From Escherichia coli (GTDB lineage Bacteria > Pseudomonadota > Gammaproteobacteria > Enterobacterales > Enterobacteriaceae), in the NCBI GenBank assembly GCA_025544715.1, contig GCA_025544715.1_4109.2: a DNA stretch of 64,000 nucleotides; one strand, written 5' to 3'. This document shows positions 5,269 through 24,682 of this stretch, piece by piece. The translations under genes and the position numbers were made by a program. Numbering within the stretch: position 1 is the stretch's first letter; each line of letters opens with the position of its first letter. Below the pieces are notes generated by a model. That model made no database searches. It was not told the origin of the DNA and saw nothing but the letters and a program-made list of their open reading frames with translations.

Positions 5269-6057
5269 TTAAATGTTAGTAGTATAGTACTTGATTTCGT
5301 TTTGAATTGCAAGTTCTATTTGTTTATTGAAAAGAATTCCAAACTCTTTGATTGATTCACAATCGAATTCAATAGAAAAAGTATACTCTGGTACACGTAC
5401 ATTGTCAATACCCAAATACTCTTTTATGTAAATTTTAATGAGTTCACATAGTGCAGTACTAAGACATTGAATTTCAAAATGTTTTGCACCTTTGTCAAAA
5501 TACTTGAATGCATCAATATCACCTACAATAAAACTATTCTTTAATGTAGTGAATAGGTTCTCAGGAAACACGGTAATAGGTGACATTGATTTAAGAATGT
5601 ATGTATCTTTTGCATTCTTAATGTACTCAATGAAGCAGTAGTTAACGTCAGGCTCGATTGAACGATCCGCGTTATGATACCAGTGTTTAAACTCACTGTA
5701 TTCAGCAAACTTATGCTGGCGTAATGCGTTACAATCTTCACACAGTGCAGTCATGTTCTCTTTATCATTACCGCCCTGAAGACAGTCCAGTACGTTATGG
5801 TCTAACGTCATGCGTACAAGACGTTTCCCTTTAAGTACATAAGGTCTGAATTTATAACGTTCTTTAGTACTGTGCTTGTGTAAAGTGAATACTACATTGG
5901 ATTCACCACAACAATCACATTTAAAGCCATCACGTGACATTACATGAATAAGTTTGCGTGTGTTCGGTCCAAACTCAGATTTAGTAATTTTATCCACAAT
6001 TTCTGATGGTTGGTAATATTTTGAATTCCGTTGAATCAGTTCATCGATAGTGCTCAT
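5269..6057 (-). CDS. HNH endonuclease domain protein (262 aa)
   Basis: Cys-x2-Cys pair plus DHNVLDCLQGGNDKENMTALCEDCN, an HNH-type motif. Confidence 0.55.
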   Translation of the reverse strand: MSTIDELIQRNSKYYQPSEIVDKITKSEFGPNTRKLIHVMSRDGFKCDCCGESNVVFTLHKHSTKERYKFRPYVLKGKRLVRMTLDHNVLDCLQGGNDKENMTALCEDCNALRQHKFAEYSEFKHWYHNADRSIEPDVNYCFIEYIKNAKDTYILKSMSPITVFPENLFTTLKNSFIVGDIDAFKYFDKGAKHFEIQCLSTALCELIKIYIKEYLGIDNVRVPEYTFSIEFDCESIKEFGILFNKQIELAIQNEIKYYTTNI

Positions 6058-6587: not shown

Positions 6588-7110
6588 GGACTTTTAATAT
6601 TGACGGGATTTGAGGAAGGGATTTTTCTTCCCCCCCACAAGGAGGGAAATTTGACGCTGATGGTATCAGAGCTATTGCATTGAAGATTACTCATAACGAG
6701 TGCGAAAGCGGGTCATCCTGTTTCTCTCTACTTCAGTTTCATATGACGGTCTACACTTTTAAACATAGTGTATCTTCATTAAGTATCTATGCAATCAAAT
6801 ACTTAATGTGAGTACTCAAATTCTGGACGCAACTTTCCTGTACAAAATTTGATAACTCTCCCTTAGATAATTCGTAAGGTGTTATCCTTATATGTCTATC
6901 AAGGAACCACCAGCTATCCTAACGTGGTTCTTTATACAGCCGCATTGCCGTGAGGGGTTCAAACTATGCCCACATCTAACGGGTTTCTTTTGCTGTTCGC
7001 ACTGTCGGACTGCTCAACTGCCCTCTACGTTTTCGAGTGGATCAGGTACATGAATATCATGCCAACAGAATTGTACAAGATAATTATATCACAAACTTTT
7101 ACTTCATCCC

Positions 7111-7145
7111 ATAAAAAAAGGTTGGCATAAGCCAACCCTTTTTCT
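7111..7145 (-). terminator. intrinsic terminator
   Basis: GGTTGGC-ataa-GCCAACC hairpin followed by U7 on minus strand, directly after the sigma gene stop. Confidence 0.6.
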
Positions 7146-8111
7146 TTAGAAATCTTCGTATTCGTACCCTTTTGCAAGTACTAGCTTCTTAAGCTTTTGC
7201 ATAGCTTCACTGTACTTTCGATGTATTGATGAACGGGATTTAACATATTTTCCATTATCATCAACAAAACCATTATCAGCAATCTCACGAAGCGTTTCAG
7301 GTTCATATTCACCTAGACCATGAACACGCTGGATAATCTCACGTTCTTTAGTACTCAATTCGTTAGTCAGTTCATTGATAGCATAACGTAAAGGTGCACG
7401 AATACTATCAACATTGAGGTTAAAATCAGAAGCAGGTGAATGAATAATGTCACCTAGTGTACCATCTGTAACACCGTCTAATGGTGCATCCAGTGAAGTG
7501 TATTCGCTTTGAAATAACAAACAATTATTAACATGCTGAATCTCAATCCCAGTACCCTCTGAGATTATTTCAGGAGTTGGGCGAACACCATGTTTACGCA
7601 TATATTCTTGGCAGAATCTTTTTACTTTGATCTTATGAACACTCATATAACGTGGGAAGTGTACCATATAGTTAGCGTCAGAACTTTCGTTATAAACTGT
7701 CATGTAAATACTAGAAGAAGCATAGGTAATGAACTTCACATTCTTATTAAGATCAAAGGTTTTTAGTGCTCTCATGAACCCCTCAACACCATATGAAATC
7801 TTATCTTCAAATGGGATATAACAAGTACATTTACTTGCTACATCAATAATAAGTCCATAATTGTAACGAACTAACAGTTCAGTGTTTTTCTTTACATTGA
7901 TACCAGCTTGAATATCACGAATTAGATCTTCATTGGTAACATTTTGTGGTCGCTTAAGTGTAATATTATATTTGAAACTGCTTTGTACTTTACCTTCATT
8001 TTCATCTTTATCTTCAACGAAATCTAAGGCTTCTAGTGTGTTGACTTCTTCATTAGCAAAACATTCATCCAGAACTTCTTCGGCAATTGTATTTAAATCA
8101 AGCTTTTTCAC
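7146..8111 (-). CDS. RNA polymerase sigma factor, sigma-70 family (321 aa)
   Basis: region 2-like GFMRALKTFDLNKNVKFITYASSSI and region 4-like LSTKEREIIQRVHGLGEYEPETLREIAD. Confidence 0.6.
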   Translation of the reverse strand: MKKLDLNTIAEEVLDECFANEEVNTLEALDFVEDKDENEGKVQSSFKYNITLKRPQNVTNEDLIRDIQAGINVKKNTELLVRYNYGLIIDVASKCTCYIPFEDKISYGVEGFMRALKTFDLNKNVKFITYASSSIYMTVYNESSDANYMVHFPRYMSVHKIKVKRFCQEYMRKHGVRPTPEIISEGTGIEIQHVNNCLLFQSEYTSLDAPLDGVTDGTLGDIIHSPASDFNLNVDSIRAPLRYAINELTNELSTKEREIIQRVHGLGEYEPETLREIADNGFVDDNGKYVKSRSSIHRKYSEAMQKLKKLVLAKGYEYEDF

Positions 8112-8132: not shown

Positions 8133-8630
8133 TCAAAATCGATATACATTAATATTATCATCTGTGAAGCAATCATGGTTATGCACATCCATGAAAGTAC
8201 TAAACACTTTATCATATAAAGTTGTATGTTCTTCATGAATAGCAGCATCTACCATGTATTCTCCACCACTTCCCATAAAGAAAGTGTAGTCTTCATGTAG
8301 ATATTCAAGTTTTTTAATAAACTTTCCTTTAGTTAAAATCATATGAATAACATAATCTTTAGAAAGAAGCACACAATGGCAACTTAACTTTCTGTCAGGT
8401 ATAACTGGTACTTTATTAATTAACCAATCCAGTACTTTATCAATTTCACTTACTGACCCACTAGCACTGAATAAACGGTCATGTACATATAAAGTTTTTT
8501 GATTAACAACTCCATATTGATATTTTGGTCTTAGTGGGAAAAAACCAAATAAGTTTCTTGGTATAGTTGACGTAACTCTAGAATCGGTAATCAATAAATT
8601 TAATCGTTTATCAATATAAACAGTTGTCAT
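8133..8630 (-). CDS. HslV-like / proteasome-type Ntn-hydrolase peptidase homologue (165 aa)
   Basis: N-terminal MTTV (Thr after Met) and FFMGSGGEYMVDAAIH resembling HslV IAIGSGGPYA region, by recall. Confidence 0.45.
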   Translation of the reverse strand: MTTVYIDKRLNLLITDSRVTSTIPRNLFGFFPLRPKYQYGVVNQKTLYVHDRLFSASGSVSEIDKVLDWLINKVPVIPDRKLSCHCVLLSKDYVIHMILTKGKFIKKLEYLHEDYTFFMGSGGEYMVDAAIHEEHTTLYDKVFSTFMDVHNHDCFTDDNINVYRF

Positions 8631-8631
8631 A

Positions 8632-9051
8632 TTAAACCTTATCTAAGAATTTATCGTATATATAAAATTCTTTATCGGTGAATACAGTAAATCTAGGATC
8701 GAATCTTTGCATTGTGTTCGTATACAATGAACTTTTTAAATAAAAATACAAAGCAACAAATTCTGATATATGCATATTCTTTTTATTGTTACATAAATTC
8801 TTTAGCATTTTGATGCTATCAAATTCTTCTTTATCAAATCTGTACTGGTAAAAATTGTATCTATTGGATCGGCACTCATAGATACGAAGTGCCATTATAT
8901 CAATACATTCTTTAGATTTACAGTACTTATTCAATACGTCATAATCACCCGTACATAATGCTACAAAGATTTTATGTGCAAGCGTAGCTTTGCCCTCAAT
9001 CGTATAATAGCCAAAAAATTTAATGATTAAGTACTGAATGAATGTAATCAT
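8632..9051 (-). CDS. hypothetical protein (139 aa)
   Basis: ORF track. Confidence 0.45.
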   Translation of the reverse strand: MITFIQYLIIKFFGYYTIEGKATLAHKIFVALCTGDYDVLNKYCKSKECIDIMALRIYECRSNRYNFYQYRFDKEEFDSIKMLKNLCNNKKNMHISEFVALYFYLKSSLYTNTMQRFDPRFTVFTDKEFYIYDKFLDKV

Positions 9052-9056
9052 TTGAT

Positions 9057-9317
9057 TTAGAATTTCTCCGAAATTACTAGAGTGTCATCATAATCTTCTG
9101 CAATCTCATGAAGAACTTTTAAGTTACTTTCACCAGAAACGCTTTGTACTTCGTTCAAAAGATAGTTTAGATCAACTTTAGTTACTTTTTCTGAATCAAA
9201 TACACAGAAAGTCAATTCGGCGTTTGGACAGATCTTCTTCAGATTATCAGCAACAACTTGTTTGAAGTTGAAAGATGGGGAAGCAACCAGGTTAACTGCA
9301 ACGAGAATAGATTTCAT
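9057..9317 (-). CDS. hypothetical protein (86 aa)
   Basis: ORF track. Confidence 0.4.
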   Translation of the reverse strand: MKSILVAVNLVASPSFNFKQVVADNLKKICPNAELTFCVFDSEKVTKVDLNYLLNEVQSVSGESNLKVLHEIAEDYDDTLVISEKF

Positions 9318-9356: not shown

Positions 9357-9385
9357 ATTGTACTCCATATTATTTGTTATGTCAA
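9357..9385 (-). promoter_or_regulatory. sigma70-like promoter (TTGACA-17-TACAAT)
   Basis: minus-strand reading, upstream of 9057-9317. Confidence 0.45.
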
Positions 9386-9677: not shown

Positions 9678-9706
9678 ATTATATATAACATACTAAATTA
9701 TGTCAA
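9678..9706 (-). promoter_or_regulatory. sigma70-like promoter (TTGACA-17-TATAAT)
   Basis: consensus hexamers on minus strand. Confidence 0.55.
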
Positions 9707-21653: not shown

Positions 21654-21718
21654 GAACCTTAGACCTCATAATATCCATTATGATATTATTTATTGTTCCA
21701 AGGTTCATAGTTAATTTG

Positions 21719-21802
21719 CTGGTAGTACTGGAGTCGAACCAGTCTTGTCATTTCTGACACGGATTAACAGTCCGTTGCATAAGGCCGATATGCTAACTAC
21801 CA
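21719..21802 (-). tRNA. tRNA, anticodon GUU as read (Asn), but with a long class-II variable arm; identity uncertain
   Basis: hand fold: 7-bp acceptor, D-arm GCAT/ATGC, anticodon stem ACGGA/TCCGT with loop CTGTTAA, 15-nt variable arm, T-arm ACTGG-TTCGACT-CCAGT. Confidence 0.5.
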
Positions 21803-21814
21803 TTTGTTTTAAAT

Positions 21815-21894
<80 letters not shown>

Positions 21895-21897
21895 GTA

Positions 21898-22391
<494 letters not shown>

Positions 22392-22753
22392 ATCACCAAC
22401 TTTAATTAAAAAAATGGATGGTGACGCGTTTAAACGCCGCTGTTAATTCAGCTTTATAACCACCCGTTTTAACTTACCTTTCGGCTACCTTGACGTGGGG
22501 CGTACAGGCTACTAAAAGCAACTTCTGTAAACATATTTCCACGCCTTACCATTTTAAATAAAAGTCCATCCGGTTTTCCAGTTTGGTGAAGGACTGTCAC
22601 CTCTAGTTTCAACCTGCTAGTCAAGTAATAATTGCCTATCGTCCAATTATCAAACCCGTCTAGGTTAACATTCACCACTTCCTAGAGTACCAGAGATCTT
22701 GTTCTGGATAGCATCGACGTAACTTACACCATATACGTCTGATTGTGGAATTC
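22392..22753 (-). ncRNA. candidate promoter-driven structured RNA or long leader (~360 nt)
   Basis: ORF-free, visibly GC-richer stretch immediately downstream of a consensus promoter. Confidence 0.25.
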
Positions 22754-22778
22754 ATTATATCAGTACTGAACTATTTAG

Positions 22779-22782
<4 letters not shown>
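22754..22782 (-). promoter_or_regulatory. sigma70-consensus promoter (TTGACT-17-TATAAT), cassette copy 2
   Basis: near-identical to the cassette at 21995-22023. Confidence 0.55.
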
Positions 22783-23191
<409 letters not shown>

Positions 23192-23204
23192 GCTTTTTTT
23201 TTAA

Positions 23205-23365
<161 letters not shown>

Positions 23366-23369
<4 letters not shown>

Positions 23370-23526
23370 ATTCGTACCAGTAGTTCAATTAAGTACATTT
23401 CATATGCTGGATCGTTGATAAGTTTATCATACAGATGTGGCTCTGAAATGAATTCCCAATGATACTCTAACCACTTACCAAAACCTGCATATCTAAAATT
23501 AATGTCATTCATCCATTCTTCATGTG

Positions 23527-23530
<4 letters not shown>
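23366..23530 (-). CDS. MTHEEW small-protein family member (54 aa)
   Basis: hand translation MTHEEWMNDINFRYAGFGKWLEYHWEFISEPHLYDKLINDPAYEMYLIELLVRI. Confidence 0.45.
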
Positions 23531-23790
<260 letters not shown>

Positions 23791-23794
23791 TATT

Positions 23795-23910
<116 letters not shown>

Positions 23911-23927
23911 ATGTGATGTCCCATTAT

Positions 23928-24146
23928 TTATGCAAGTGCTTTAGATACACCGACACCAATAATTCCAGTGATAGCGATATGGATATTGACAAGTTGATTA
24001 CTATCATATGGGTTTGTTTCTGTAATAACCAATGTTGTATCATTGACTAAAACCACAGTGCCTTTTACACGATACCCATGTAGTAGTACTTGAACCTCAT
24101 CTTCAGGTTTTAATGATTGAATAACTTCAAATAAAGTTGTTTCCAT
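23928..24146 (-). CDS. hypothetical protein (72 aa)
   Basis: ORF track. Confidence 0.35.
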   Translation of the reverse strand: METTLFEVIQSLKPEDEVQVLLHGYRVKGTVVLVNDTTLVITETNPYDSNQLVNIHIAITGIIGVGVSKALA

Positions 24147-24162
24147 TTTTTATATTCCTTGT

Positions 24163-24345
24163 TTAGTTTTGATTATTTGATTTTCTAAATGCCAGTTCGC
24201 ATATAAACCAAGGTTTTCTGGTATCCAAAACATATGACCTGAAAAGATTTTCATCTCTTAAGATATCATAATGTACCTGACGAATGCCATTTCCAAAGCA
24301 ATCATGTTCTTTATGCTGTTTGGACATCCATTCTTCGTGTGTCAT
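24163..24345 (-). CDS. MTHEEW small-protein family member (60 aa)
   Basis: track ORF 24163-24363 trimmed to the internal MTHEEWMSKQHKEHDCFGNGIR start. Confidence 0.4.
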   Translation of the reverse strand: MTHEEWMSKQHKEHDCFGNGIRQVHYDILRDENLFRSYVLDTRKPWFICELAFRKSNNQN

Positions 24346-24346
24346 T

Positions 24347-24682
<336 letters not shown>

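What the first reader, a model, noticed from the sequence alone, without database searches (positions are those of the whole stretch)
7146..8111. Phage-encoded sigma-70-family sigma factor with regions 2 and 4
The 321-aa ORF has a region 2-like segment and a clear region 4 helix-turn-helix, unlike the short T4 gp55 late sigma. It is followed by a strong terminator. A full sigma-70-family factor suggests the phage redirects host RNA polymerase to its own promoter class.
Basis: partly seen in the sequence, partly recalled or inferred. Interest (0 to 1): 0.6.

Follow-up and report, generated by a model that had tools for sequence, protein, structure and literature searches.

The report
Jumbo-phage sigma factor, already annotated
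The ORF is a real phage-encoded sigma-70-family factor that public records of 121Q-like jumbo coliphages already annotate, and sequence comparisons suggest it steers the host RNA polymerase to a phage-specific "middle" promoter class that also switches on the phage's second, late sigma factor.

Summary
Window 7146-8111 (minus strand) encodes a 321-aa sigma-70-family protein followed by a strong terminator.

The window is 99% identical to Asteriusvirus jumbo phages (121Q, PBECO4, G17, phAPEC6). There the same gene is already annotated as an RNA polymerase sigma factor, but I found no experiments on it.

It belongs to a distinct family found only in RaK2-like jumbo phages (71 records). Every member lacks the W433/W434 pair and carries an 8-residue beta-hairpin inserted in the region 4.2 helix-turn-helix. 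It is therefore not an RpoD, RpoS or FliA orthologue.

The gene sits in an early region dense with perfect host-type promoters.

Genome-wide I found a second promoter class, GGGACA-N16-TGnTATAAT: 12 strict copies against about 1 expected, all on the coding strand. These promoters precede the ssb gene, tRNAs, nucleotide-metabolism genes and the gp55-like late sigma gene.

The -35-like box differs between phage clades and changes together with the recognition helix of this sigma. PA5oct-like phages lack this sigma and have a host-type TTGACT box in front of their late sigma gene.

Best model (about 0.6): host sigma-70, then this sigma, then the gp55-like sigma. All of this is inferred from sequence.

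Interest is modest.

The parts
7146..8111 (-). Coding sequence of the 321-aa sigma-70-family factor. Orthologue of 121Q gp167, G17_00146 and phAPEC6 gp066c.
   Evidence: ORF. Profile matches. 99% identity to annotated phage genes.
8118..8121 (-). Ribosome-binding site GGAG, 6 nt upstream of the GTG start codon.
   Evidence: Read directly from the sequence.
7674..7952 (-). sigma2 domain (aa 54-146), covering regions 1.2-like, 2.1-2.4. D103, G108, G111, F127 and Y130 are kept.
   Evidence: Alignment to E. coli sigma-70 residues 372-578. pLDDT about 90.
7710..7715 (-). Codons for S133-S134, at the position of the W433-W434 pair of sigma-70.
   Evidence: The position is S, T or A (or another small residue) in every phage-family member and WW in the cellular hits.
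7515..7652 (-). sigma3 domain (aa 154-199).
   Evidence: Pfam PF04539 at 2e-9, above its cut-off. pLDDT about 85.
7392..7514 (-). Region 3.2 linker or 'finger' (aa 200-240), with the conserved motif SLDAPL...TLGD.
   Evidence: Alignments.
7170..7391 (-). sigma4 domain (aa 241-314).
   Evidence: Partial Pfam PF04545 match. pLDDT about 90.
7251..7274 (-). 8-residue insertion NGFVDDNG (aa 280-287) between the two helices of the region 4.2 helix-turn-helix. Predicted to form a beta-hairpin.
   Evidence: Alignments. The model shows strands at 282-283 and 289-290 with pLDDT 87-90.
7212..7238 (-). Recognition helix S292-Y300 (SRSSIHRKY). R293 = R584, S294 = E585, S295 = R586, H297 = R588, R298 = Q589.
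   Evidence: My extension of the alignment. Covariation with the promoter box.
7113..7145 (-). Intrinsic terminator. It works in both directions because the GC stem is flanked by an A run and a T run.
   Evidence: Annotated in G17.
9357..9385 (-). Host-type promoter TTGACA-17-TACAAT (11 of 12). It heads the likely operon orf86-orf139-orf165-sigma.
9678..9706 (-). Perfect host-type promoter TTGACA-17-TATAAT, further upstream on the same strand.
8133..9317 (-). Three upstream ORFs in the same transcription unit: 9057-9317 (86 aa), 8632-9051 (139 aa) and 8133-8630 (165 aa, weak HslV-like match).
   Evidence: No terminator lies between them and the sigma gene.
23895..23922 (-). Candidate target promoter of the second class: GGGACA-N16-TGaTATAAT. 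It ends 10 nt before tRNA-Ser(tga) and tRNA-Arg.
7083..7110 (-). Weaker promoter of the same class: GGGATG-N16-TGaTATAAT, immediately after the sigma terminator. RaK2 has a TGAACA-type promoter at the same place.

Best explanation
The gene encodes a true sigma-70-family initiation factor. It is made early, transcribed by host sigma-70 holoenzyme from consensus TTGACA-17-TATAAT promoters, as the last gene of a four-gene operon that ends at the terminator.

The protein then binds host core RNA polymerase. The inferred contacts are through sigma2 region 2.2, the 3.2 finger and sigma4.

It directs the polymerase to a phage-specific 'middle' promoter class, GGGACA-N16/17-TATAAT with an extended -10 (TGn). 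Its modified region 4.2 reads the GGGACA box. That region has the recognition helix SRSSIHRKY preceded by a beta-hairpin insertion.

These promoters drive the ssb gene, tRNAs, nucleotide and recombination genes, and the gene for the gp55-like late sigma. The late sigma in turn reads TATAAATA late promoters. The phage would therefore run a three-tier sigma cascade.

Shown here:
- the protein's identity and anatomy;
- the early-type promoters upstream of the gene;
- the existence, strand bias and gene context of the second promoter class;
- the covariation between box and helix across clades.

Inferred, not shown:
- binding to host core polymerase;
- timing of expression;
- that this protein, rather than another factor, reads the box.
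For: Identity.

Family: 71 full-length homologues, one per RaK2-like jumbo phage. There are 19 clusters at 50% identity scoring 133-590 bits, grading into cellular sigmas that start at 123 bits.

Family hallmarks, present in all members:
- no W433/W434 pair;
- an 8-residue insertion in the helix-turn-helix;
- the 3.2 finger, Y130, D103 and P153 are conserved.

Early context:
- Sigma-70-like promoters in the window show a 37:1 strand asymmetry.
- There are 10 perfect TTGACA-N16-18-TATAAT sites against 0.31 expected.
- Host-type promoters lie 0.5-2.1 kb upstream of the sigma gene in 9 of 11 clades.

Second promoter class:
- GGGACA-N15-17-TAnAAT occurs 12 times, all on the coding strand. Thirty simulated genomes gave a mean of 1.0 and a maximum of 4.
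- TGn accompanies 11 of 12 GGGACA promoters but only 4 of 34 TTGAC[AT] promoters (Fisher p = 1e-6).
- The promoters sit upstream of ssb (two in tandem), the gp55-like sigma, tRNAs, and the td, nudix and glutaredoxin operons (with annotation).

Covariation. The same promoter positions are conserved upstream of the late sigma and ssb genes in all clades, but the box is clade-specific.

| Box | Recognition helix |
|---|---|
| GGGACA | SR(S/T)S(I/L)HR |
| G(G/A)AAC(G/A) | SK(A/P)TLSRR |
| TGAACA | VRGTLHY |

Independent support:
- The spacing to the -10 element is the canonical 16-17 nt expected for sigma4.
- Positions R584, E585, R586, R588 and Q589 are the ones known to set -35 specificity (PMC2613000, PMC12262734).
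- PA5oct-like phages have the gp55-like sigma but not this sigma. Their late sigma gene follows a host-type TTGACT-N17-TAAAAT promoter.
- The CBB paper independently reports a divergent promoter class (TGAAACG) in front of DNA-synthesis genes and its gp55-like sigma (PMC5259590).
Against: - There is no transcription-start, time-course or biochemical data for any member.
- The second promoter class has a perfect extended -10. E. coli sigma-70 holoenzyme can use such promoters without a -35 element, so the phage sigma may not be needed.
- The aromatic residues W433/W434 are missing, and so are Q437, T440 and R441. W433/W434 contribute to open-complex formation (PMC2613000). Promoter melting by this protein is therefore unproven.
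- The covariation rests on only three or four independent clade-level changes. There is one exception: JNE01 has GGAACA with an S-S-H-R helix.
- A MotA-like activator reading the box was not excluded. I did not scan the roughly 600 phage ORFs for AsiA or MotA homologues.
Confidence: 0.6

Rival explanations
1. Host sigma-70 holoenzyme reads the GGGACA promoters through their extended -10. Another phage-encoded factor, such as a MotA-type activator with or without an AsiA-type co-factor, binds the box. The sigma in the window would then have other, unidentified targets.
For: All promoters of this class carry TGnTATAAT. T4 middle promoters have the same kind of -10 (established knowledge). [quoted passage not shown]
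Against: - The box sits at the canonical 16-17 nt spacing for sigma4, not at the -30 position of a MotA box.
- The box changes between clades together with the DNA-facing residues of this sigma's helix.
- No AsiA or MotA gene is annotated in phAPEC6.
- No other orphan promoter class that this sigma could serve was found.
Confidence: 0.2
2. The protein is a replacement housekeeping sigma. It takes over all TATAAT-type phage promoters (TTGACA, AGTACTTGCA and GGGACA types) once host sigma-70 is inactivated or outcompeted.
For: All three promoter types share a consensus -10. GGGACA differs from TTGACA only at -35 and -34. R584, which contacts -31, is kept as R293.
Against: Four of the five specificity positions of the recognition helix are changed (PMC12262734). 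TGn is strongly partitioned between GGGACA and TTGAC promoters (p = 1e-6), which argues for two recognition modes.
Confidence: 0.1
3. The protein is a sigma-like decoy. It occupies host core polymerase to shut off host transcription and does not initiate at specific promoters.
For: It has lost W433/W434, Q437, T440 and R441. Its HTH carries an insertion. The Pfam r2 and r4 matches fall just below their cut-offs.
Against: The 3.2 finger, Y130 and the recognition-helix positions are under conservation across 19 clusters at 50% identity. The helix co-varies with a DNA box. A decoy would not need these features.
Confidence: 0.08

Closest known systems
E. coli sigma-70 / sigma-S (group 1-2 sigma factors)
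   Same: It has the same domain order: sigma2, sigma3, the 3.2 finger, then sigma4. These are the best sequence and fold matches. D403, G408, F419, F427, Y430, P453 and R584 are conserved.
   Different: - No region 1.1 or non-conserved region, and no detectable Pfam region 1.2.
- W433/W434 become S/S, Q437 becomes M, T440 becomes Y, R441 becomes N, H455 becomes Y and E458 becomes V.
- 8-residue hairpin insertion in the region 4.2 helix-turn-helix.
- E585, R586, R588 and Q589 become S, S, H and R.
- Scores are far below the equivalog cut-offs: 88 bits against 354 for RpoD_Cterm and 71 against 379 for RpoS.
Orthologues in RaK2-like jumbo phages (CBB_513, GAP32, RaK2, K64-1, 7t3, XaC1)
   Same: Same family (PHROG 351), same hallmarks and same early genomic context. 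CBB and GAP32 have a reported divergent promoter class in front of DNA-synthesis genes and the gp55-like sigma (PMC5259590).
   Different: They are 32-44% identical. The recognition helix and the promoter box differ by clade: GGGACA here, G(G/A)AACG in the CBB group, TGAACA in RaK2.
Bacillus phage SPO1 gp28 and gp33/34 cascade; coliphage phiEco32 gp36 (the latter from memory)
   Same: Phage-encoded sigma-70-family proteins replace the host sigma on host core polymerase to switch from early to middle and late transcription. For SPO1, see the abstract of PMC13401047.
   Different: As I recall, those are small two-domain sigmas without a sigma3 domain. No sequence similarity was detected: they are not among the tblastn hits at E <= 1e-5. 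Here the late tier is a T4 gp55-type sigma.
T4 gp55 late sigma (with gp33 and gp45)
   Same: Both are phage sigmas that work with host core polymerase. The phage carries its own gp55-like gene (phAPEC6 gp237c; PHROG 234 at 8e-18) and TATAAATA-type late promoters.
   Different: No sequence relationship to the window protein (E = 0.035). gp55 has only a sigma2-like part and reads a single -10-type element.
T4 MotA/AsiA sigma appropriation at middle promoters
   Same: Middle genes (ssb, nucleotide metabolism, tRNAs) are served by promoters with an extended -10 plus a non-host upstream box.
   Different: T4 remodels host sigma-70. Here a separate sigma gene exists, and the box is at the canonical -35 distance.

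Membership tests
sigma-70 family (TIGR02937 / Pfam sigma70 domains) | Score above the curated superfamily cut-off | tested here: met
   TIGR02937 scores 44.8 bits against a 42.9 cut-off.
sigma-70 family (TIGR02937 / Pfam sigma70 domains) | sigma2 domain (PF04542) | tested here: inconclusive
   23.0 bits against a gathering score of 24.0, E = 7e-5, covering aa 80-140. Several family members do pass: PF04542 is precomputed for P0002, P0003 and P0007-9. The fold is confirmed.
sigma-70 family (TIGR02937 / Pfam sigma70 domains) | sigma3 domain (PF04539) | tested here: met
   37.9 bits against 25.3.
sigma-70 family (TIGR02937 / Pfam sigma70 domains) | sigma4 helix-turn-helix (PF04545) | tested here: inconclusive
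   23.8 bits against 24.1. Only profile positions 4-28 of 50 align, because of the 8-residue insertion. No phage-family member has a precomputed PF04545 hit. The model shows a helical sigma4 with pLDDT about 90.
sigma-70 family (TIGR02937 / Pfam sigma70 domains) | Three-dimensional similarity to solved sigma factors | tested here: met
   In Foldseek against the PDB, all top 50 hits are sigma-S, sigma-A or sigma-70 chains, with E from 1e-11 to 3e-9 and probability 1.0.
sigma-70 family (TIGR02937 / Pfam sigma70 domains) | Binds core RNA polymerase and confers promoter-specific initiation | not testable with these tools
   Needs biochemistry. The only indirect support is conservation of region 2.2 (D103, G108, G111, M113, A115) and the 3.2 finger.
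Primary-like sigma (RpoD/RpoS, groups 1-2), as named in some GenBank records | Score above the equivalog cut-off | tested here: not met
   RpoD_Cterm 88.4 against 354. RpoS 70.7 against 378.7. FliA/WhiG 56.3 against 189.6.
Primary-like sigma (RpoD/RpoS, groups 1-2), as named in some GenBank records | Conserved W433/W434 pair and the -12 readers Q437 and T440 in regions 2.3-2.4 | tested here: not met
   The residues are S133, S134, M137 and Y140. The pair is absent in all family members.
Primary-like sigma (RpoD/RpoS, groups 1-2), as named in some GenBank records | Region 1.2 (PF00140) | tested here: not met
   No PF00140 hit even at E <= 10. Most of the cellular hits carry it.
Primary-like sigma (RpoD/RpoS, groups 1-2), as named in some GenBank records | Canonical -35 readers R584, E585, R588, Q589 | tested here: not met
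   Only R584 is kept (R293). The others are S294, H297 and R298.
RaK2-like jumbo-phage sigma family (PHROG 351 subgroup) | Strong full-length profile match, plus the two hallmarks (no WW pair, insertion in the HTH) | tested here: met
   PHROG 351 at 8e-61. Profile search gives 133-590 bits for the 19 family clusters, grading into cellular sigmas from 123 bits. Hallmarks are present in all members.
T4 gp55-type late sigma | Sequence similarity to gp55-type proteins | tested here: not met
   BLASTP against the phage's own gp55-like protein gives E = 0.035. No gp55-type PHROG appears among its hits.

The most novel reading that the evidence does not exclude
The RaK2-like jumbo phages carry a structurally distinct sigma-70 subgroup. 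It has no tryptophan pair for -12/-11 fork formation, and a beta-hairpin is inserted into the region 4.2 helix-turn-helix.

This sigma reads a clade-specific -35 box (GGGACA, GAAACG or TGAACA) together with an obligatory extended -10. It forms the middle tier of a three-sigma cascade: host sigma-70, then the phage RpoD-like sigma, then the phage gp55-like sigma.

The natural box/helix pairs would give a ready-made set of orthogonal sigma-promoter pairs that work on E. coli core polymerase.
Probability: 0.5. Interest if true: 0.5.

Novelty: already known. Interest (0 to 1): 0.3.

Why it matters
As a gene call it adds nothing. Identical genes are labelled as sigma factors in more than 20 GenBank records and in several genome papers.

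What is not in that literature, as far as my searches reach:
- the family-wide loss of the W433/W434 pair;
- the hairpin insertion in the helix-turn-helix;
- the GGGACA-N16-TGnTATAAT promoter class of 121Q-like phages;
- the fact that the box changes with the sigma's recognition helix across clades.

If confirmed, this would explain how a 350-kb phage with no polymerase of its own times its middle genes and switches on its late sigma. It would also offer natural orthogonal sigma-promoter pairs for E. coli polymerase. Finally, it shows that the GenBank names 'RpoD', 'RpoS' and 'FliA' given to this gene are over-specific.

Tried and rejected
- I searched the window for the CBB-type box TGAAACG-N10-22-TATAAT and found 0 hits. 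The box turned out to be clade-specific.
- The search for related loci with the broad alignment A3 failed for lack of a conserved stretch. I repeated it with the narrower alignment A4.
- The first word-based homologue search found only 14 proteins. The profile searches were needed to see the whole family.
- The PA5oct transcriptome paper says nothing about an RpoD-like sigma. That phage in fact lacks one.
- The phAPEC6 structural paper gives no expression or virion data for this gene.
- The fEgEco12 paper states that the sigma is absent from Ecwhy_1. This is not borne out: tblastn finds a full-length copy there (H92).
- For the 520-nt ORF-free stretch after the terminator, I found no meaningful Rfam match and a fold z-score of only -1.6.
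- I considered whether the AAAGTACTTGCA-N17-TATAAT promoters could be this sigma's targets. I rejected that as the less likely reading. They have near-consensus host elements with A-rich upstream tracts, and they lie in a block of tiny ORFs typical of immediate-early genes.
Full report
**What is at the coordinates**

The ORF 7146..8111 lies on the minus strand and encodes 321 aa. It starts with GTG, preceded by GGAG six nt upstream.

It matches the following profiles:
- Pfam Sigma70_r3 above its cut-off (37.9 bits);
- Sigma70_r2 within one bit of the cut-off (23.0 against 24.0);
- Sigma70_r4 within one bit of the cut-off (23.8 against 24.1);
- NCBIfam sigma-70 superfamily model TIGR02937 above its cut-off (44.8 against 42.9);
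- PHROG 351 'RNA polymerase sigma factor' at 8e-61.

phmmer against PDB sequences aligns residues 73-279 with E. coli sigma-70 residues 372-578.

An AlphaFold model built on a 50-sequence alignment has confident sigma2, sigma3 and sigma4 domains with pLDDT 85-93. All of its top 50 Foldseek hits in the PDB are sigma-S, sigma-A or sigma-70 chains (E about 1e-11).

The stop codon is followed by a GC stem and a U7 tract. Folding energy is -21.3 kcal/mol, z = -5.0.

**Where the window comes from, and what is already known**

The window is 99% identical to Asteriusvirus jumbo coliphages: 121Q, PBECO4, G17, phAPEC6 and Sharanji.

In those records the same gene is annotated as 'RNA polymerase sigma factor'. 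The gene names are 121Q gp167, G17_00146 and phAPEC6 gp066c.

Genome papers mention it as a predicted factor that probably works with host polymerase:
- Sharanji, PMC11895373;
- phAPEC6, PMC7247149;
- fEgEco12, PMC13070987;
- CBB, PMC5259590.

Iyer et al. list an RpoD-like sigma and a minimal sigma as hallmarks of 'group 2' jumbo phages (PMC7824862). I found no experimental work on it. The gene call itself is therefore already known.

**Anatomy, and how it departs from cellular sigmas**

I mapped the alignment onto E. coli numbering.

| Status | Residues |
|---|---|
| Kept | D403 (D103), G408, G411, F419, F427, Y430 (Y130), P453, R584 (R293) |
| Changed | Q406S, E407Y, Y425V, W433S, W434S, R436Y, Q437M, T440Y, R441N, H455Y, E458V, E585S, R586S, R588H, Q589R |

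The 3.2 finger motif SLDAPL...TLGD is conserved.

Between the two helices of the region 4.2 helix-turn-helix lies an 8-residue insertion, NGFVDDNG (aa 280-287). The model folds it as a beta-hairpin with pLDDT 87-90.

The first 45 or so residues are acidic and predicted to be disordered, apart from one short helix.

A profile search of 1.84 billion representative proteins finds 19 clusters at 50% identity that belong to this family, scoring 133-590 bits. They grade into cellular sigmas, which start at 123 bits.

Every family member lacks the tryptophan pair and has the insertion. The cellular hits in the same alignments have WW (all, nearly all), and none has the insertion.

tblastn finds one full-length copy in each of 71 phage records, all RaK2-like jumbo phages of Enterobacterales and Xanthomonas.

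The scores are far below the curated cut-offs for RpoD, RpoS and FliA. The GenBank names 'rpoD', 'rpoS' and 'FliA' used in some records are therefore not justified.

**Genomic context**

The window is almost entirely minus-strand genes.
- Perfect TTGACA-N16-18-TATAAT sites occur 10 times, all on the minus strand, against 0.31 expected.
- Near-consensus sites show a 37:1 strand asymmetry.

The sigma gene is the last of four ORFs downstream of TTGACA-17-TACAAT at 9385-9357. A perfect promoter lies further up at 9706-9678. No terminator intervenes.

Host-type promoters lie 0.5-2.1 kb upstream of the orthologous gene in 9 of 11 other clades. This makes it an early gene transcribed by host holoenzyme. 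That is an inference from sequence, as there is no expression data.

The neighbouring ORFs have no informative domains. The exceptions are a weak HslV-like match for orf165 and an HNH endonuclease further downstream.

**A second promoter class**

I assembled the colinear phAPEC6 genome and looked for enriched words in 233 upstream regions. Three signals came out.
- Host-type -35 and -10 elements.
- T4-late-like (A/T/C)TAAATA in front of structural genes.
- A new pairing: GGGACA at the -35 position with TGnTATAAT.

For the new pairing:
- Strict GGGACA-N15-17-TAnAAT occurs 12 times, all on the coding strand. Thirty first-order Markov genomes gave a mean of 1.0 and a maximum of 4.
- TGn accompanies 11 of 12 GGGACA promoters but 4 of 34 TTGAC[AT] promoters (Fisher p = 1.1e-6).
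- Among the 83 TGnTATAAT sites on the coding strand (21 on the other strand), the commonest -35 hexamers are GGGACA, GAGACA and TGGACG. TTGACA occurs twice.

These promoters precede the following genes (with annotation):
- ssb (two promoters in tandem);
- the gp55-like late sigma and the recombination nucleases that follow it;
- operons containing thymidylate synthase, nudix hydrolase, glutaredoxin and PhoH;
- in the window, tRNA-Ser and tRNA-Arg, from the promoter at 23922-23895.

A weaker copy, GGGATG-N16-TGaTATAAT, sits right after the sigma terminator at 7110-7083. RaK2 has a promoter of its own type at the same place.

The late sigma is a gp55-type protein (PHROG 234 at 8e-18). It is unrelated in sequence to the window protein.

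**Who reads the box?**

I fetched the late-sigma, ssb and RpoD-like sigma loci from many RaK2-like genomes.

The promoters upstream of the late sigma and ssb genes are conserved in position in all clades, with the same 16-17 nt spacing and TGnTATAAT. The box, however, is clade-specific and tracks the sigma's recognition helix.

| Clade | Box | Recognition helix |
|---|---|---|
| 121Q, BF17 | GGGACA | (S/A)RSS(I/L)HRKY |
| 7t3, fENko-Kae01 and two metagenomic relatives | GGGACA | SRTSLHRCY |
| RaK2, KP13-7 | TGAACA (TGAATA before the late sigma) | VRGTLHYKF |
| CBB, GAP32, BF, fHe-Yen9-04 and relatives | G(G/A)AAC(G/A) | SKATLSRRY |
| Xanthomonas phages (XbC2 box; XaC1 helix) | GGAACG | SKPTLSRRY |

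The 7t3-group sigma is only 37% identical to the window protein overall. In region 2 it looks closer to the CBB type. Yet it shares the R..S.H pattern together with the GGGACA box.

The varying positions correspond to R584, E585, R586, R588 and Q589. Genetics, structures and a redesign study identify these as the determinants of -35 specificity (PMC2613000, PMC12262734).

As far as I know, the enterobacterial hosts share essentially the same sigma-70 region 4.2. I did not check this here. If so, a clade-specific box needs a phage-encoded reader.

There is also a natural control. PA5oct-like Pseudomonas phages carry the gp55-like sigma (11 records) but not this sigma. Their late sigma gene follows a host-type TTGACT-N17-TAAAAT promoter.

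The CBB paper had already noted a divergent promoter class with -35 TGAAACG in front of DNA-synthesis genes and its gp55-like sigma. It did not link that class to the sigma's sequence.

**Model and its limits**

The best explanation is a three-tier cascade (confidence about 0.6).
1. Host sigma-70 transcribes the early genes, including this sigma.
2. This sigma reads GGGACA-N16-TGnTATAAT middle promoters, including that of the late sigma gene.
3. The gp55-like sigma reads TATAAATA late promoters.

The identity and anatomy of the protein, the promoter classes and the covariation are shown by the analyses above. Core binding, timing and direct reading of the box are inferred.

The caveats are:
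- extended -10 promoters can work with sigma-70 alone;
- the tryptophan pair that contributes to open-complex formation (PMC2613000) is missing;
- the covariation rests on few independent changes, with one exception (JNE01 has GGAACA);
- a MotA-like reader of the box is not excluded.

Rival readings are given separately with their tests.

**Verdict**

However, the gene is already annotated and belongs to a known kind of system: phage sigma factors that redirect host polymerase. Interest is modest (0.3).

The added value here is the description of the family's unusual features and a concrete, testable assignment of promoters.

The most striking thing I saw lies outside the finding. The palindrome AGTACT is over-represented seven- to ten-fold across these genomes.

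Noticed in passing
Whole window (144 copies). Also phAPEC6 loci L002-L009 and 11 other RaK2-like clades (L010-L054).: The palindrome AGTACT is strongly over-represented. phAPEC6 has 918 copies against about 120 expected from base composition, while 23 other palindromic hexamers of the same composition occur 42-223 times. The flanks are biased towards CAGTACTG. Inside ORFs it occurs in all three reading frames (388/237/160), so the selection acts on the DNA rather than on a peptide. The excess is 7- to 10-fold in every RaK2-like clade sampled. The palindrome also sits at fixed places in promoters (AAAGTACTTGCA, and AGTACTG directly before TATAAT) and in terminator stems. I found no paper describing it, and its function is unknown.
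   Followed up: partly
L007 (phAPEC6 325-343 kb, minus strand). Outside the window.: There are about 19 near-identical promoter cassettes of the form AAAAAGTACTTGCA-N17-(G)TATAAT-gttttACAT. Each is followed by a GC-rich 5' hairpin (GAGGGGGAAAtGGTTCTCCC) and a tiny ORF. They look like an immediate-early gene block.
   Followed up: partly
Window 6600-7080, minus strand.: A stretch of about 520 nt without an ORF lies between the sigma terminator and the next host-type promoter (6587). It is headed by the GGGATG-N16-TGaTATAAT promoter. There is no meaningful Rfam match, and the fold z-score is only -1.6. It may be a non-coding transcript.
   Followed up: partly
Window 21718-24660, minus strand.: A cluster of six tRNA genes: Asn, Met, Ser(gct), Arg(tct), Ser(tga) and Gly. 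tRNA-Ser(tga) starts 10 nt after the -10 element of a GGGACA-type promoter.
   Followed up: partly
L002 (phAPEC6 18682, 20863, 21788 and 32216, minus strand).: Terminator-promoter cassettes of the form aaaGGGTTGACTTCGGTCAGCCCtttttgcTATAAT. The terminator hairpin contains a TTGACT -35 element, and its T-run leads into a TGnTATAAT -10 element.
   Followed up: no
Window 8133-8630, minus strand.: The ORF immediately upstream of the sigma gene (165 aa) has a weak match to an HslV-family peptidase PHROG (4.9e-6) and no Pfam hit. One GenBank record names it HslV.
   Followed up: no
Window 5269-6057, minus strand.: An HNH endonuclease (PHROG 35175 at 1e-187) lies downstream of the sigma operon, among small ORFs of unknown function.
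   Followed up: no
L004 8458-8588 (phAPEC6 155958-156088) and L010-L027.: The short intergenic region in front of the gp55-like sigma gene holds two divergent promoters in all clades. One is the clade-specific middle promoter for the sigma gene. On the other strand is a TATAAATAC late-type motif facing the baseplate and structural genes.
   Followed up: partly
Public records and literature.: The fEgEco12 paper lists the sigma factor as absent from phage Ecwhy_1, but tblastn finds a full-length copy there (MH791411.1, 1665-2630). GenBank names for this gene vary between rpoD, rpoS, FliA and hypothetical protein, and none of the specific names passes the NCBIfam cut-offs.
   Followed up: yes
L077 (PA5oct).: PA5oct-like Pseudomonas jumbo phages share the gp55-like sigma (40% identity). 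So do a Vibrio phage, Atu_ph07 and SCTP-2 (32-50%). None of these appears among the hits for the RpoD-like sigma. In PA5oct the late sigma gene follows a host-type promoter, TTGACT-N17-TAAAAT.
   Followed up: partly
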